64,000 nt of DNA, taken from Escherichia phage IrisVonRoten. The translations under genes were made by a program, and so were the position numbers. The notes beneath the pieces are model-generated. The model was not told the DNA's origin, made no database searches, and saw only the letters and a list, made by a program, of their open reading frames with translations. Where the stretch lies: sequence record MZ501075; one strand, written 5' to 3'. Shown here one piece after another: positions 1-45,080 of this stretch (position 1 is the stretch's first letter; each line of letters starts with the position of its first letter).

Positions 1-689
1 TGCTTTGAGGAAAATCTTTTAGCAAAAAGATAATCTTCTGCTTTAACTTCTCGCCAATTGCCTGTGGCTAAATCGCGATGAAATCCTGCATGACCTTGTA
101 GGATTGAAAACACAACAATACTCCTGTGTTGGAAATGAAATAAGTTTTCTTTAGGACTATTCAGAAAGAATAGAACAACTGTTACTGTCAATTTCTCAAC
201 AAATTAATTGCAAATACTGAAGTGGGGTGGCAACTTCCACTTTCACGCTGCGCTGCTGCCTCATTATATCGCACAAATCCTTGAGGATGGCCGCTAAGCC
301 AGATTTGCTCACCTAATGCTTCATATACTAGCTCATACTAGATGCAATATAACTTACAGAATCACGTCTCGGTAGTTTTTCACTCCTCCCATCTCACTTC
401 ACAACCACCTCATACTAGGTTGCTTCGAGGCCTTACCAGGGTTCCTATGGGACGCAGATCGCTAAGTATTCTATTAACTATTTGTTTAAAAACTAACACG
501 TAACAGTTAAAACAACCCTTAATGGGGCAGCCTAACTGTTCCGTATCGCGGATTGTAAACAAGAAAAATTAGTAAAACCAATTTTTACTAATGTCTCTCA
601 ATTCAATATAAATATTATATCAAGATTTTGAGTATCATGCAAGTAAAATTTTCCGGATGGTGCTATCAGTGTCTTTGAGTACAGAGAAA

Positions 690-16669: not shown

Positions 16670-17052
16670 TAATTTAAAAGCTAGTAAATCGGTAGACGAA
16701 AGCCCAAGCATCTTACCTCGCAGCAGCGGTTGAAATACGAGGTTAAATAAGACCGCTGACCATACTATAAAGTATAATCTATTGGAGATTATGTTTATTA
16801 CATCAGACATTTAATCTGACACGTAAAAACAAAGCGTCGTTGATATTACCGACACAACTTCAAAGATCAACATTTAAGTATGAAAGCTGAAAAGTTTAAA
16901 GAACTCAAACTTCTAAACTTCTAAAGCTAAAAGATGCAAAGTATTCGTTGATGATTCAAACCCTAGATCAAAGGTACATGGCTCATAAGATATGGCCTGT
17001 GGCGCCTCTAGGCTGTTTATCGGTTTACTAGTTTCACAATTTAAAAATGTAT

Positions 17053-17081
17053 TTGCTAATTTATTAAGTTATCTGTATAAT
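17053..17081 (+). promoter_or_regulatory. T5-type early promoter
   Basis: ttgctaatttattaagttatctgtataat. Confidence 0.55.
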
Positions 17082-17111
17082 ATATTTTTAAATTGATGAA
17101 ACGAGGCTATT

Positions 17112-18603: not shown

Positions 18604-18826
18604 ATATTCATAAATTAGAGAACAGCGAGCCGATTACGCTGAGTGCAGAATCCCAACCGGAGCGCATTGAATAGAGTCGGTGGGTTAGTTGGAAAACTAG
18701 TACACAGGGGGCGGCAATCCCGGTTAGTGGCTAGAACGTGTAAAATGGGGCGTCTGAAACCTCTCCCCTAAACTCTTCTTTAATTTACTGATAGTGGGGT
18801 GTGGAAATCACTTATGTAGTAACACT

Positions 18827-18899
18827 GCCGATCTAGTATAAAACGGTATTATCAAGCCGTAACTGGTGGAAGATGTAGGTTCGAATCCTACGGTCGGTA
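18827..18899 (+). tRNA. tRNA-like gene; canonical acceptor and T-arm, anticodon arm unresolved
   Basis: Acceptor gccgatc/ggtcggt; T-arm gtagg-ttcgaat-cctac. Confidence 0.45.
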
Positions 18900-19401
18900 A
18901 GAACTGGATAACTGGTGCTTTTAATGTAAAAGCTTCCGAGGTTAGTTGCGCACTGCCTAAACCACGCGGTAGTTGGTTCCAGACTAACCAACCAGTCTGC
19001 TGAATAGTTTTATTACGATTTAACTATGTCCAGGCTAAAGAAGAACTTTAGAAGGTATTCTAGGATAGTGAAGTTCTTTCTCCATATCGGAGTAGTTTTT
19101 CAAACTATCCACAAAGTGGGAAATGCTGGCATGAGAGATGCCACTAATGGTGCACAATAGCACAGGTAATTCGCGATAACTCCTGTTGAGTAGCAGCAAA
19201 AAGGTGGGGAGTCATGACCCTAACCTAACCGAGTCCTCAGTATACCGCAGGACATAACCACTAAGTCACCTTGACTTAAACTGGAAAATAATAGACGTTA
19301 CTGTATTTTGTCTTGAAATACTTAATGAGTGAGACTTATGACTCTCCCGGTATCGTCTGTATTTTTAAGAGTTTTTACGAGAGTTCTTAAAAATACTTAA
19401 A

Positions 19402-24147: not shown

Positions 24148-24177
24148 CTCCTCCAAACAGAATTTTTAAAAATGTAC

Positions 24178-24207
24178 TTGCCTTTTGCTTTAAATCTCTG
24201 ATATAAT
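24178..24207 (+). promoter_or_regulatory. T5-type early promoter
   Basis: ttgccttttgctttaaatctctgatataat. Confidence 0.5.
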
Positions 24208-24237
24208 AGTTATATAAATTGATGAAGGAGTTAACTA

Positions 24238-25644: not shown

Positions 25645-25749
25645 CCAAATTCTGTGTAGAGTTAAGTAAACCGGTAGCCAACCAGCTATCATTGCTGACA
25701 TCGAATTCAGCCACAGATACCATTTTCATTAATAACTGAGGAAACAAGC

Positions 25750-26648: not shown

Positions 26649-26770
26649 TAAAATTTCAGTGCAGAACACGGAGCTAGCAATTCGGAAGTGCTGACTCATG
26701 ATAAGCTGCCTATGTACTTGCTAAGCGGTCGTGTCCAAGACTCGGACTCTTGCACTGAAAACAATCAAAC

Positions 26771-26891
26771 ATTCTAGCGTGGTTGATGGGGAAACCAGCT
26801 TGGCGAGGGCAGAAGCTCGTTCGATTCGAGTGAAAGAATGGTTCTCGTAAGTCCGCACAAGTGATAACAGGTTCGAGTCCTGTCTAGAATG
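26771..26891 (+). ncRNA. approx. 120-nt tRNA-like element (acceptor and T-arm canonical, large internal insertion)
   Basis: 5' attctag pairs 3' ctagaat; T-arm acagg-ttcgagt-cctgt; internal about 50 nt extra. Confidence 0.3.
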
Positions 26892-27040
26892 ACACTATAA
26901 AGTTTACTTATTATGTAGGTTCCGATAGATCGGCGGGTCTATTCTGGCATTTAAGAGAGGTCTCGCAAACTTCTTTGTCAGCCGTGGGGTTGGTAGCCTC
27001 CAGGTGGCCTACACAATAAGTAAATTTATTAAAAATTCAT

Positions 27041-28156: not shown

Positions 28157-28227
28157 TTTAATGGGAGAACCCCGTCTTTACACGGCGGTTGCGATAGTTC
28201 GATTCTATCACCGAGTACCAAGTACAA
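28157..28227 (+). tRNA. tRNA-Val (anticodon TAC)
   Basis: Acceptor gctcggt/accgagt, anticodon stem ccgtc/ggcgg, loop tttacac. Confidence 0.6.
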
Positions 28228-28245
28228 GAAATTTCAAAAACTCAT

Positions 28246-28274
28246 TTGCTTAATGCTTAATTTCTTGTTATAAT
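28246..28274 (+). promoter_or_regulatory. T5-type promoter driving structured RNA and tRNAs
   Basis: ttgcttaatgcttaatttcttgttataat. Confidence 0.55.
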
Positions 28275-28289
28275 ATTTATATAAATTGA

Positions 28290-28510
28290 TGAGGAGAAAT
28301 CCTCATCATAGTTCACTAAGGTATTAGCTCGACCTAGGACTGGCTGCCAAAAAGCACGATCCCTACGATTTGGGAGAAGTTCTAGATTAGTCCACTAGAT
28401 TCAGCGGCAACTGAATAGTGTATCGGGTTTGCGAGATGACGTAGTTCCTTCCGCTCGAAGCGAAGGTGCTGTAGTTACGCCGAGCTAATAGCCTTAGTAA
28501 ACTAAAGAAT
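28290..28510 (+). ncRNA. ORF-free structured transcript (leader or small RNA)
   Basis: Hairpin gatgaggagaaatcctcatc; long-range pairing attagctcg (28323) with cgagctaat (28480). Confidence 0.3.
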
Positions 28511-28512
28511 TT

Positions 28513-28588
28513 GGGGAATGGGTCTGCATGGAGTGGACACCTCGCTTGCACCGAGGACATCAGAACGGTTCGATTCCGTTATTCTCCA
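28513..28588 (+). tRNA. tRNA-Ala (anticodon TGC)
   Basis: Acceptor ggggaat/attctcc, anticodon arm cctcg-cttgcac-cgagg, T-arm aacgg-ttcgatt-ccgtt. Confidence 0.6.
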
Positions 28589-28596
28589 CCAAATAC

Positions 28597-28670: not shown

Positions 28671-28785
28671 CCAAATTTGATGGTCAGAGTAAATTAAACC
28701 TACTATCTCGGTTGAGCTGTTTTAATGGGTTCGAATCCCAGCGAGGCGTAACTGCCTGGTGTGATAGAGGCATCATCTTATTATT

Positions 28786-28873
28786 GGAAGAGCAAATCGA
28801 ATTGGCGACGAAAACCGCTTGGAAAGCGGCTGACTGGTAAAACGGCTTGAGAGTTCAAATCTCTCCTCTTCCG
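28786..28873 (+). tRNA. tRNA-Ser (anticodon GGA), long variable arm
   Basis: Acceptor ggaagag/ctcttcc, anticodon loop ttggaaa, T-arm gagag-ttcaaat-ctctc. Confidence 0.6.
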
Positions 28874-28895
28874 CCAAACAATTGAGGTAATAATA

Positions 28896-29243
28896 ATGCT
28901 AGCAAAAGATAAAGCTCTAGAGTTTTTAGCATCTTTAGATGAAGATAAGATTATAGATGCAGCTGAAAAAGCTGGAATGCCTGATTTAACATATCTGGAA
29001 CGTGCTATTATTGCTCGTGATAAACTACAGAAAGAATTTGCTATTGCTCAGGAGGAGTTTTATACTCGCTATAACGCTCTTACTAAGCAAATTGAAAATG
29101 AGTGTTCTCATACTTGGGGAGTAACAGAAAACCTAGGTAATGATCACGATGGCTGGTCTAAAGTAAAAATTACCTATTATCATCGTAGGACTTGTAAAAT
29201 CTGTGGAAAAGTAGAAAACTTCACTAGTACGAGTGACTATTAG
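28896..29243 (+). CDS. hypothetical protein with C-terminal CxxC pairs
   Basis: ORF track. Confidence 0.4.
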   Translation: MLAKDKALEFLASLDEDKIIDAAEKAGMPDLTYLERAIIARDKLQKEFAIAQEEFYTRYNALTKQIENECSHTWGVTENLGNDHDGWSKVKITYYHRRTCKICGKVENFTSTSDY

Positions 29244-29545: not shown

Positions 29546-29552
29546 AAATTCT

Positions 29553-29683
29553 TGGAATATGCCGGAATTGGTAGACGGGACTGCCCAATAGGTTTACTAG
29601 GAACATCCACTCCTAGAAATATACCTTAAAAGCGGTTGAGTTAAATGGTCTAACTCATGAAGGTTCAAGTCCTTCTATTCCTT
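29553..29683 (+). ncRNA. approx. 130-nt tRNA-like element with Leu-like D-arm and internal insertions
   Basis: D-arm ccggaattggtagacgg; T-arm gaagg-ttcaagt-ccttc; hairpin ctaggaacatccactcctag. Confidence 0.3.
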
Positions 29684-29922
29684 GATACATCAATGGCTCA
29701 AAGTGTAACGGTGCTATTTGATGCGCTTGGAAAGACTTTCCCGACATGCGTTCGGGGGTAAGCTTCTGAGGCTAGAATAGAAGAGTTTCTGAGAGCCGCC
29801 ACAATTGAAAATTCGTACTCGTCTTGAGCTGCGTGCAATAGGAGATAACTTGATTAGTATTCTAGAACATGCTAATTGAGGATGGTTTCGCTAACCCTGC
29901 GAGTTTTCAATTGTGGCTATAT

Positions 29923-31526: not shown

Positions 31527-31544
31527 CCAAATTTAAAAATTCAT

Positions 31545-31573
31545 TTGCTTTCTCTCTTATTTATCGCTATAAT
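31545..31573 (+). promoter_or_regulatory. T5-type early promoter
   Basis: ttgctttctctcttatttatcgctataat. Confidence 0.55.
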
Positions 31574-31603
31574 ATTTATATAAATTAATGAGAGGGAAAC
31601 CAA

Positions 31604-33878: not shown

Positions 33879-33907
33879 TTGCTAAACCTCTCTTTTCTTG
33901 CTATAAT
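33879..33907 (+). promoter_or_regulatory. T5-type early promoter
   Basis: ttgctaaacctctcttttcttgctataat. Confidence 0.55.
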
Positions 33908-33937
33908 ATATTTATAAATTGATGAGAGAGGTTTGAA

Positions 33938-42779: not shown

Positions 42780-42808
42780 TTGCTTTTTGCTAAAAATTTT
42801 GGTACAAT
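42780..42808 (+). promoter_or_regulatory. promoter (TTGCTT-17-TACAAT)
   Basis: ttgctttttgctaaaaattttggtacaat. Confidence 0.5.
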
Positions 42809-42898
42809 ACTTATATAAATTGATGAGAAGGCTATCTTCGTATGGGTTCTAGTCATACTAAGGGCTATCTACGCACTACAAGAAATAGGAGTATTCCA

Positions 42899-45021: not shown

Positions 45022-45050
45022 TTGCTAAAATGCTTAAGTTTCTGTATAAT
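45022..45050 (+). promoter_or_regulatory. T5-type early promoter
   Basis: ttgctaaaatgcttaagtttctgtataat. Confidence 0.55.
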
Positions 45051-45080
45051 TACTTTATAAATTGATGAGAAGGAAACAAA

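What the first reader, a model, noticed from the sequence alone, without database searches (positions are those of the whole stretch)
28290..28510. Promoter-driven 220-nt structured, ORF-free RNA preceding tRNA-Ala
A canonical early promoter (28246-28274) is followed by a hairpin (gatgaggagaaatcctcatc) and a long-range helix (28323 with 28480) before the first tRNA of the cluster. This suggests a discrete small RNA or processing scaffold rather than a simple leader.
Basis: seen in the sequence. Interest (0 to 1): 0.45.

Follow-up and report, generated by a model that had tools for sequence, protein, structure and literature searches.

The report
Phage T5 stable RNA "RNA2H" ortholog
The flagged stretch is the counterpart of "RNA2H", a small non-coding RNA of phage T5 long annotated as having unknown function; comparison with relatives shows an intricate conserved fold with two pseudoknots in most T5-family phages tested.

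Summary
The window is the tRNA region of a T5-like phage. Bases 28322-28493 are 97.7% identical to the T5 feature "rna2H / RNA2H, stable RNA with unknown functions". The promoter at 28246-28274 matches annotated T5 promoter P13b. So the element is already known as an annotated RNA, but it has no Rfam family and I found no paper on it.

New here: a structure backed by compensatory changes. It has a 21-bp closing helix P1 with a conserved bulged purine. Helix P2a carries three hairpins (P2-P4), and a long hairpin P5 follows. The strand between P1 and P2a pairs with the loops of P3 and P4, giving two pseudoknots.

A covariance model built from T5-like copies finds homologs in Klebsiella, Pectobacterium, Proteus, Providencia and Aeromonas phages of the Demerecviridae. 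It finds none in Vibrio phage pVp-1, T4 or bacterial genomes. One natural isolate has lost the core.

Most likely mechanism: early transcription, then excision by a staggered double-strand cut in P1 (RNase III-like, inferred), giving a compact stable RNA that acts in trans on an unknown partner. A simple leader, a riboswitch and a tRNA-processing scaffold are less likely.

The parts
28246..28274 (+). Early sigma-70-type promoter, ortholog of T5 promoter P13b (TTGCTT, 17 bp, TATAAT). The transcription start is inferred near 28281.
   Evidence: Sequence. 28226-28300 is 97.3% identical to the T5 annotated P13b. The same promoter sits directly before P1 in Klebsiella phage Roth39. The start site is inferred, not measured.
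28288..28307 (+). 5' leader hairpin (8 bp, GAAA loop). It lies outside the annotated mature RNA and is not a conserved part of the family.
   Evidence: It is replaced by a ~115-nt insert in TrudiRoth, 1-23, SP33, phiR2-01 and phage 5, and is absent in Roth39.
28311..28331 (+). P1, 5' strand (GTTCACTAAGG | TATTAGCTCG). The annotated T5 5' end corresponds to 28322.
   Evidence: The inner half covaries in every lineage (1 of 720 permutations as good). The outer half is nearly invariant.
28322..28493 (+). Equivalent of the annotated 172-nt mature RNA2H of T5.
   Evidence: blastn gives 172/172 nt aligned at 97.7% identity to T5 rna2H. T5 annotation.
28332..28353 (+). J1, the single strand between P1 and P2a (ACCTAGGACTGGCTGCCAAAAA). 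It carries the 5' strands of both pseudoknots: GGACT at 28337-28341 and TGCC(A) at 28345-28349.
28354..28357 (+). P2a 5' strand (GCAC); pairs with 28418-28421.
   Evidence: Five pair sets seen: GCAC/GUGU, ACAC/GUGU, AUGU/GCAU, AUGC/GCAU, AAGA/UCUU.
28358..28376 (+). P2, a variable hairpin (19 nt here, about 41 nt in many Epseptimavirus and in Roth39).
   Evidence: (helix 5: 3 pairs changed on both sides).
28381..28399 (+). P3 hairpin (TCTAG-ATTAGTCCA-CTAGA). Loop bases 28389-28393 (AGTCC) pair with J1 28337-28341 to form pseudoknot PK1.
   Evidence: Stem compensations in SE3 and EH3 (helix 6). PK1 sets: GGACU/AGUCC, GAGCC/GGCUC, GAACC/GGUUC, GAACU/GGUUC, GAACC/GGUUU. In the Aeromonas phage I read GACG/CGUC from the cmsearch alignment.
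28400..28415 (+). P4 hairpin (TTCAG-CGGCAA-CTGAA). Loop bases 28406-28409 (GGCA) pair with J1 28345-28348 to form pseudoknot PK2.
   Evidence: PK2 sets: UGCC/GGCA, UACCA/UGGUA, CGCCA/UGGCG, UGCCA/UGGCG, ACCA/UGGU. It is weakened in phiR2-01.
28418..28421 (+). P2a 3' strand (GTGT).
28422..28430 (+). Junction between P2a and P5 (ATCGGGTTT). It is purine-rich and single-stranded in the model.
28431..28480 (+). P5, a long irregular hairpin. Its base (GCG/CGC) abuts P1. It exists in at least two sequence versions.
   Evidence: Base pair 155:203 is C-G, U-A or A-U. Helix 10 has 8 pairs changed on both sides. Also.
28481..28502 (+). P1, 3' strand (CGAGCTAATA-G-CCTTAGTAAAC) with a conserved bulged purine at 28491. 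The annotated T5 3' end corresponds to 28493.
   Evidence: The bulge is G in T5-like, Klebsiella, Pectobacterium, Proteus and Providencia phages and A in the Aeromonas phage.
28513..28591 (+). tRNA-Ala(UGC), the first downstream gene of the same transcription unit. It is context, not part of the RNA.

Best explanation
The element is the ortholog of phage T5 RNA2H, a discrete stable non-coding RNA of the tRNA region.

Shown:
- It sits behind the ortholog of early promoter P13b.
- It folds into a structure supported by compensatory substitutions. P1 is a 21-bp closing helix with one bulged purine. Helix P2a carries hairpins P2, P3 and P4. P5 is a long hairpin that abuts P1.
- The strand J1 pairs with the loops of P3 and P4, giving two pseudoknots.
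- P2 and P5 are exchangeable peripheral modules. P1, J1, P2a, P3, P4 and both pseudoknots form the conserved core.
- The family is present in seven of the eight Demerecviridae lineages tested.

Inferred:
- The primary transcript starts near 28281.
- P1 is cut on both strands with a 2-nt 3' overhang, between 28321|28322 and 28493|28494, the geometry of RNase III.
- This releases a 172-nt RNA whose ends are protected by the remaining 10-bp helix.
- It also leaves a 19-nt leader on pre-tRNA-Ala for RNase P to remove.

Hypothesis: the released compact RNA acts in trans by binding a conserved host or phage partner, most probably a protein of the RNA or tRNA metabolism machinery, as a decoy or scaffold. 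It is an accessory function, not an essential one.
For: Identity:
- 172/172 nt at 97.7% identity to T5 rna2H, and P13b at 97.3%.
- The same label appears in DT57C, DT571/2 and Salmonella phage 5.
- The order promoter, RNA, tRNA-Ala, tRNA-Leu is conserved.

Structure:
- z = -6.07.
- On 40 T5-like sequences, 94.4% of cells are paired against 30-41% when partners are slid. 14 pairs change on both sides. 0 of 500 shuffles reach the covariation score.
- Across six lineages every helix stays paired with different sequences. Exact permutation counts are: P1 inner 1/720, P1 outer 6/720, P2a 12/720, PK1 24/720, PK2 36/720.

Family:
- Model R1 scores are Roth39 84 bits, DU_PP_V 76, Providencia 50-53, Aeromonas 45 and Proteus 33-35, each inside the tRNA cluster.

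Processing:
- The T5-annotated ends fall in the middle of P1, 10-11 bp from either end of the helix. If U28322 pairs with G28491, the 3' end overhangs by exactly 2 nt. This is my reading of the geometry.

Against a purely cis role:
- The downstream gene differs: tRNA-Ala, tRNA-Leu, or unrelated ORFs.
- The leader is variable or absent.

Accessory nature:
- One isolate keeps P1 but has lost 126 nt of the core between two GCTCGA repeats.
Against: - No experiment was available here. 'Stable RNA' and the 172-nt ends rest on GenBank annotation whose basis I could not read; no paper in the library mentions RNA2H.
- RNase III cleavage is inferred from geometry alone.
- No binding partner is identified, and no protein gene is consistently adjacent.
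- The outer half of P1, which the model says is discarded, is the most sequence-conserved part of the element. Simple RNase III recognition does not explain that.
- phiR2-01 has a J1 variant (GGCCUCC) that leaves only about 3 bp of PK2.
- The minimum-free-energy fold prefers a competing helix, CUAGGACU with AGUUCUAG, over P3 plus PK1. Two T5-like variants also fit that helix.
- Covariation cannot tell intramolecular from intermolecular loop pairing.
Confidence: 0.6

Rival explanations
1. Cis-acting processing scaffold. The structure exists only to direct cleavage of the polycistronic early transcript and correct maturation of the downstream tRNAs. The excised piece is a by-product that happens to be stable.
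For: P1 brings both flanks together like an rRNA processing stalk. The element always lies inside the tRNA cluster. It sits immediately upstream of tRNA-Ala in T5-likes and Roth39, and of tRNA-Leu in DU_PP_V.
Against: A processing stem does not need a conserved four-way junction and two covarying pseudoknots. In Eps7, NG_S8, Proteus and Providencia phages the next gene is an unrelated ORF, not a tRNA. The natural core deletion keeps P1, so processing could persist without the core.
Confidence: 0.15
2. Riboswitch-like cis regulator. The pseudoknotted core is an aptamer for a metabolite or ion that controls expression of what follows.
For: The architecture resembles an aptamer: a closing helix, a multi-helix junction, loop-to-strand pseudoknots, conserved junction bases and variable peripheral hairpins. 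In Eps7, NG_S8, Proteus and Providencia phages a ribosome-binding site and start codon follow P1 within about 10-20 nt.
Against: P1 is 21 bp, far too stable to act as a switching helix. There is no terminator, anti-terminator or sequestering helix between P1 and the downstream gene. In most phages the downstream genes are tRNAs. The RNA is annotated as an accumulating stable species. No Rfam riboswitch matches.
Confidence: 0.08
3. Self-assembling or catalytic RNA. The J1-to-loop pairings are intermolecular and build multimers, as in phi29 pRNA or the ROOL and GOLLD assemblies. Alternatively, the core is a ribozyme that makes its own ends.
For: Covariation is blind to whether pairing is within or between molecules. 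The outer P1 and the bulge next to both annotated ends are unusually conserved. GOLLD and ROOL are also phage-borne and tRNA-adjacent; this point rests on my own knowledge and was not tested.
Against: No match to any ribozyme, pRNA, ROOL or GOLLD model in Rfam. Intramolecular pairing is the simpler reading, because J1 and both loops lie within 75 nt. The annotated ends lie within a regular helix, which is atypical for known self-cleaving motifs.
Confidence: 0.07
4. No function: a leader sequence with a fortuitous stable fold.
For: One isolate has lost the core. The tRNA region of T5 tolerates deletions; this rests on my own knowledge and was not tested.
Against: The element is conserved with compensatory changes across seven lineages infecting six host genera. 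The core is invariant while the flanking tRNA-Ala diverges.
Confidence: 0.02

Closest known systems
Phage T5 RNA2H (GenBank misc_RNA rna2H, locus tag T5s04, NC_005859 31808-31979; also annotated in DT57C, DT571/2 and Salmonella phage 5)
   Same: The same gene: 97.7% identity over all 172 nt, the same promoter (P13b), and the same neighbours tRNA-Val upstream and tRNA-Ala and tRNA-Leu downstream.
   Different: Five substitutions only. The databases give no structure, family or function for it.
Other small stable RNAs of phage tRNA clusters: T4 species 1 and 2 RNAs (rnaC, rnaD), and T5 RNAI, RNAIII, RNAIV, RNA1-3 and RNAX
   Same: They are co-transcribed and co-processed with phage tRNAs, accumulate as stable RNAs, and are labelled function unknown.
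   Different: Model R1 finds no detectable relationship to T4 rnaC or rnaD (best 9.7 bits, outside both genes). RNA2H is not tRNA-like, whereas T5 RNA1, RNA2 and RNA3 are annotated as tRNA-like.
RNase III processing stalks of rRNA operons and T7 early transcripts
   Same: The flanks of the mature RNA pair into a helix of about 2 turns. The annotated ends lie mid-helix, staggered by 2 nt.
   Different: Cleavage by RNase III is not demonstrated. The outer helix and the bulge are sequence-conserved far beyond what RNase III is known to need; that comparison rests on my own knowledge.
Large ornate phage-associated RNAs found next to tRNA genes (GOLLD, ROOL) and phi29 pRNA
   Same: All are phage-borne, non-coding and elaborately folded. 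The loop pairings could in principle be intermolecular.
   Different: RNA2H is much smaller than GOLLD or ROOL. No Rfam model matches. It belongs to a different phage family and is expressed early with tRNAs.

Membership tests
T5 RNA2H (annotated stable RNA) | Sequence homology to T5 rna2H over its full length | tested here: met
   172/172 nt aligned at 97.7% identity, window 28322-28493; alignment.
T5 RNA2H (annotated stable RNA) | Synteny: promoter P13b, then RNA2H, then tRNA-Ala, then tRNA-Leu | tested here: met
T5 RNA2H (annotated stable RNA) | Accumulates as a discrete stable ~172-nt RNA in infected cells | not testable with these tools
   Only the GenBank label is available. No paper was found.
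Any Rfam 15 family | Covariance-model score at or above the gathering threshold | tested here: not met
   Only tRNAs pass in the window. With E up to 10, nothing credible falls over 28281-28512. Nothing falls over the homologs in L039, L075 or L081.
tRNA or tRNA-like RNA | Cloverleaf recognised by ARAGORN or the Rfam tRNA model | tested here: not met
RNase III processing stalk | Double helix of about 20 bp or more formed by the 5' and 3' flanks of the mature RNA | tested here: met
   21 pairs, 28311-28331 with 28481-28502, kept in all lineages.
RNase III processing stalk | Mature ends staggered with a 2-nt 3' overhang | tested here: inconclusive
   True for the T5-annotated ends mapped onto P1. 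However, the origin of those coordinates is unknown.
RNase III processing stalk | Cleavage depends on RNase III | not testable with these tools
   Needs an rnc mutant host or an in vitro assay.
Riboswitch | Conserved aptamer-like core closed by a helix | tested here: met
Riboswitch | Expression platform (terminator or anti-terminator, or a helix that sequesters the ribosome-binding site) overlapping the closing helix | tested here: not met
   No + strand terminator lies between 28481 and 28513. P1 is 21 bp. The downstream genes are mostly tRNAs.
T4 rnaC / rnaD | Detectable sequence and structure homology | tested here: not met
   R1 with filters off on the T4 tRNA region: best 9.7 bits, not over rnaC or rnaD.
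Protein-coding gene | Conserved open reading frame | tested here: not met
   No + strand ORF of 20 aa or more. Substitutions are paired across helices rather than showing codon periodicity.

The most novel reading that the evidence does not exclude
RNA2H is the founding member of an undescribed class of structured RNA conserved in most Demerecviridae lineages tested. Its doubly pseudoknotted core would have a specific molecular activity: binding a small ligand or a defined host protein, catalysis, or self-assembly through its loop pairings. That is, it would be more than a stable by-product of tRNA-operon processing.
Probability: 0.25. Interest if true: 0.75.

Novelty: already known. Interest (0 to 1): 0.4.

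Why it matters
T5 is a classic model phage, yet its "stable RNAs" have carried the label "unknown functions" in the sequence databases for about two decades. This analysis gives RNA2H a structure tested by covariation, with two pseudoknots and a conserved bulged processing helix. It shows that the RNA is retained in phages of Escherichia, Salmonella, Klebsiella, Pectobacterium, Proteus, Providencia and Aeromonas. It also identifies a natural core-deletion variant.

That turns a vague annotation into concrete experiments: compensatory pseudoknot mutants, end mapping in an rnc host, pull-downs, and fitness tests against defence-carrying hosts. Phage tRNA clusters are now known to counter tRNA-targeting host immunity (for example PMC11464382). 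A conserved non-tRNA RNA embedded in the same cluster is therefore a reasonable candidate for a further layer of that conflict. It would also merit an Rfam family so that genome annotators stop calling spurious ORFs over it. At least one record does so (SmurfNell).

Tried and rejected
1. Rfam, at gathering and permissive thresholds, on the window and on three distant homologs gave no family.

2. Literature searches found nothing. 'RNA2H' returned 0 papers, and three broader T5 searches plus one paper read gave nothing on this RNA.

3. Exact or degenerate pattern scans of IMG/VR returned only T5-likes, DU_PP_V and Proteus phages plus chance hits in coding DNA (chance hits checked).
   - The metagenome scan returned only T5-type copies.
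   - The bacterial and archaeal genome scan returned 0.

4. A search for a conserved partner gene failed. The ORFs directly downstream in Eps7, PR1 and Proteus phage 2 are unrelated to each other.

5. Fetching loci around the YqeY-like gene brought only T5-likes and PM135.

6. The promoter-only match in Klebsiella phages lies before the DNA ligase gene, not an RNA2H copy. The real Klebsiella copy was found with the model instead.

7. I suspected that the ~115-nt leader insert of some phages is a partial duplicate of RNA2H. The local alignment is no better than shuffles (289 of 500 at least as good), so I rejected the idea.

8. The MFE helix CUAGGACU/AGUUCUAG was rejected as the main fold. By my inspection it has no counterpart in DU_PP_V, and it competes with P3 and PK1, which covary. 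It may be an alternative conformer in T5-likes.

The cross-lineage pair statistics therefore come from my own hand-curated strand table, not from an automatic alignment.

10. T4 rnaC and rnaD homology: none.

11. Vibrio phage pVp-1: no hit.

Full report
**What the window is.** ARAGORN finds 25 tRNA genes on the + strand between 18.8 and 32.4 kb. The flagged region matches several hundred T5-like phage genomes (Tequintavirus and Epseptimavirus; 541 records for the promoter-containing query, 434 for the core alone). The window is therefore the tRNA region of a T5-like phage, read on the strand opposite to the T5 reference.

**Checking the observation.**
- The promoter TTGCTT-17-TATAAT is at 28246-28274.
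- The hairpin GATGAGGA-GAAA-TCCTCATC is at 28288-28307.
- A long-range helix is present.
- The generic promoter scan missed the promoter because its -35 box matches TTGACA at only 3 of 6 positions. However, 28226-28300 is 97.3% identical to the T5 feature 'promoter P13b'.
- The fold of 28281-28512 is far more stable than shuffled sequence: -83.6 against -56.3 +/- 4.5 kcal/mol, z = -6.07.
- No + strand ORF of 20 aa or more lies inside.
- The one error in the finding: tRNA-Ala is not the first tRNA of the cluster. tRNA-Lys and tRNA-Val end 26 nt upstream of the -35 box.

**What it is.** In the T5 reference, the interval between P13b and tRNA-Ala carries a misc_RNA feature, 'rna2H / RNA2H, stable RNA with unknown functions', 172 nt long.
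- Window 28322-28493 aligns to it over all 172 nt at 97.7% identity.
- The same feature is annotated in DT57C, DT571/2 and Salmonella phage 5.
- All the other annotated T5 stable RNAs also map in the window.
- The element is thus already known as an annotated RNA.
- It matches no Rfam family, and the paper library holds nothing under its name.

**Structure within T5-like phages.** Forty distinct copies were aligned (A3). Three features stand out.
- The core sequence is almost invariant, while the neighbouring tRNA-Ala diverges strongly.
- Two hairpins, P2 and P5, exist in different versions that are exchanged between phages.
- Where sequences differ, the differences are paired.

I wrote a structure from these comparisons and counted it on A3.
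- 94.4% of cells are paired, against 30-41% when the 3' partners are slid by 1-3 columns.
- 14 pairs change on both sides.
- 0 of 500 column shuffles reach the observed covariation score.
- Examples: the P5 base pair is C-G, U-A or A-U. P3 is UCUAG/CUAGA in most copies but UCUGAU/AUCAGA in SE3 and EH3. The base of P2 is UCCC/GGGA or UUGC/GCAA.

**Distant homologs.**
- A weak blastn hit led to Pectobacterium phage DU_PP_V, where a 193-nt element lies a few nt upstream of tRNA-Leu, after a CDS that follows tRNA-Val.
- A covariance model built from A3 (R1) scores DU_PP_V at 76 bits.
- R1 then finds full-length matches inside the tRNA clusters of the following phages:

| Phage | Lineage | R1 score | Position |
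|---|---|---|---|
| Klebsiella phage Roth39 | not assigned in its record | 84 bits | directly upstream of tRNA-Ala |
| Providencia phages PR1 and PSTCR5 | Priunavirus | 50-53 bits | inside the tRNA cluster |
| Aeromonas phage AhP_Mru1 | Shenzhenvirus | 45 bits | head of the tRNA cluster |
| Proteus phages 2, Stubb and PM135 | Novosibvirus | 33-35 bits | inside the tRNA cluster |

- Nothing was found in 50 kb of Vibrio phage pVp-1 that includes its tRNA cluster, nor in the T4 tRNA region with rnaC and rnaD.
- One representative genome per bacterial and archaeal species gave no hit with a family-level pattern. The same pattern scan of metagenomes returned only T5-type copies.

**The cross-lineage model**.
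- P1 is a 21-bp helix.
  - Its outer half is nearly invariant in sequence: GUUNRYUAARG with CYUUARYNAAY.
  - Its inner half is different in every lineage yet perfectly complementary. Only 1 of 720 permutations of the 3' strands among six lineages pairs as well.
  - One purine is always bulged on the 3' strand between the two halves: G in most lineages, A in the Aeromonas phage.
- P2a is a 4-bp helix that encloses P2, P3 and P4. Its pair sets are GCAC/GUGU, ACAC/GUGU, AUGU/GCAU, AUGC/GCAU and AAGA/UCUU (12 of 720).
- The single strand J1 between P1 and P2a pairs with the 3' part of the P3 loop, forming PK1. Its sets are GGACU/AGUCC, GAGCC/GGCUC, GAACC/GGUUC, GAACU/GGUUC and GAACC/GGUUU (24 of 720). 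In the Aeromonas phage I read GACG/CGUC from the alignment.
- J1 also pairs with the P4 loop, forming PK2. Its sets are UGCC/GGCA, UACCA/UGGUA, CGCCA/UGGCG and UGCCA/UGGCG (36 of 720).
- An A-rich run follows PK2.
- The RNA is thus a compact, doubly pseudoknotted fold with two variable peripheral arms.

Caveats on the model:
- phiR2-01 carries a J1 variant that weakens PK2.
- The thermodynamic MFE prefers a competing helix. The comparative nested structure evaluates to -55.8 kcal/mol against -66.1 for the MFE, before adding about -5.4 and -4.2 for the two pseudoknot duplexes.

**How it probably works.**
- Shown: the promoter, the fold, the conservation, and the position inside early tRNA transcription units.
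- Inferred, processing:
  - The T5-annotated ends, mapped on P1, lie mid-helix, 10-11 bp from each end.
  - If U28322 pairs with G28491, the 3' end at 28493 overhangs by 2 nt. That is the product geometry of RNase III.
  - Cleavage there would free the 172-nt RNA with its ends locked in a 10-bp helix.
  - It would discard the variable 5' leader and leave a 19-nt leader on pre-tRNA-Ala for RNase P.
- Inferred, trans action:
  - The 5' leader is a hairpin here, a ~115-nt insert in other phages, and absent in Roth39, where P1 starts about 3 nt after the predicted start site.
  - The downstream gene also varies: tRNA-Ala, tRNA-Leu, or unrelated ORFs.
  - So the conserved unit is the RNA itself, which argues for a trans-acting product rather than a cis element tied to one neighbour.
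- Hypothesis, the partner:
  - Retention in seven of the eight lineages tested, with an invariant core, points to a conserved host or phage component rather than a sporadic one. I cannot name it.
  - The strong sequence conservation of the outer P1 and the bulge is not explained by simple RNase III recognition. It may mark a protein-binding site, or mean that the mature RNA keeps all of P1.
- Accessory nature: one IMG/VR genome retains the promoter, leader and P1 but has lost 126 nt of core between two GCTCGA repeats.

**Rivals.**
- A pure processing scaffold does not explain the pseudoknotted core.
- A riboswitch is disfavoured by the very stable P1, the lack of any expression platform, the tRNA genes downstream and the 'stable RNA' label.
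- Ribozyme or self-assembly readings are not excluded, but nothing supports them beyond the fact that covariation cannot distinguish intramolecular from intermolecular pairing.
- A chance structure is excluded.

**Verdict.** The element is not new: it is the RNA2H gene of T5-like phages. What this analysis adds is a covariation-supported double-pseudoknot structure, a family that extends across most of the Demerecviridae lineages tested, a natural deletion variant, and a testable processing model. Function remains unproven.

Noticed in passing
window 18771-19401; 25650-25722; 26770-26894; 26913-27015; 29551-29694; 29695-29801; 29806-29911: Orthologs of all the other T5 RNAs annotated as 'stable RNA, unknown function' are present at 92-100% identity: RNAX (~630 of 719 nt, in two pieces), RNA3, RNA2, RNAIV, RNA1, RNAI and RNAIII. 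None matches a non-tRNA Rfam family at gathering threshold. ARAGORN's odd tRNA-Ser(act) call at 18826-18900 lies inside the RNAX ortholog. The 719-nt RNAX next to tRNA-Arg would deserve the same comparative treatment.
   Followed up: partly
window 28674-28875: Between tRNA-Leu(tag) and the next ORF lie about 200 nt with T-arm-like pieces (GGTTCGAATCCC, GAGTTCAAATCTC) that ARAGORN does not call. Rfam gives only a sub-threshold tRNA-Sec hit (24 bits) at 28786-28872. blastn with T5 tRNA-Ser(GGA) finds nothing here. The region may hold degenerate or unusual long-arm tRNAs.
   Followed up: partly
L088:20069-20134 (IMG/VR contig IMGVR_UViG_2706796640_000001): A T5-like genome has lost 126 nt of the RNA2H core by deletion between two GCTCGA repeats, one in P1 and one at the P5 tip. 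The promoter, leader hairpin, P1 and tRNA-Ala remain intact.
   Followed up: yes
L063:30661-30782 (phiR2-01); also L004, L008, L010, L124: In a subset of T5-like phages the short leader hairpin is replaced by a ~115-nt insert closed by its own long-range helix (GATATCAG...CTGATATC). By eye it resembled part of RNA2H, but the local alignment is no better than shuffles. It may be a separate small structured module.
   Followed up: partly
L064:24960-25117 and L081:430-606: Upstream of the Proteus and Providencia homologs there is a shared segment (CGACGCCTTAAGTGGC). Just before P1 lies a copy of the P1 3'-strand motif (CTTTAATTAAC / CTTTAGTCAAC) that could pair with the P1 5' strand as an alternative hairpin. 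This could be a second RNA or a folding competitor.
   Followed up: no
window 24159-24230, 31529-31592, 42780-42830, 33894-33926, 17038-17099, 45029-45075, 598-642 (minus strand): Further copies of the P13b-type early promoter, including its initial transcribed sequence, are scattered through the window (blastn at 75-91% identity to T5 P13b). This explains the multiple 'places per record' seen in the phage search.
   Followed up: no
L126:23891-24228 (Vibrio phage pVp-1): A 337-nt unannotated gap lies upstream of tRNA-Leu(tag), in the position where RNA2H sits in other Demerecviridae. It has no P1 motif and no hit with model R1. It might hold an unrelated or very divergent RNA.
   Followed up: partly
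window 28896-29243 and L039:2153-2479: The 115-aa ORF downstream of the tRNA-like stretch ends in a CxxC...CxxC-like motif. By eye it resembles the 109-aa ORF at the corresponding position in Pectobacterium phage DU_PP_V. It looks like a small conserved zinc-finger-like protein of the tRNA region.
   Followed up: no
L005:650-787 (SmurfNell), minus strand: The SmurfNell record annotates a 'hypothetical protein' CDS on the opposite strand that overlaps the 3' end of RNA2H and tRNA-Ala. It is probably an annotation artefact caused by the missing RNA family. In many other records the upstream CDS only reaches the promoter part of my query, not the RNA.
   Followed up: partly
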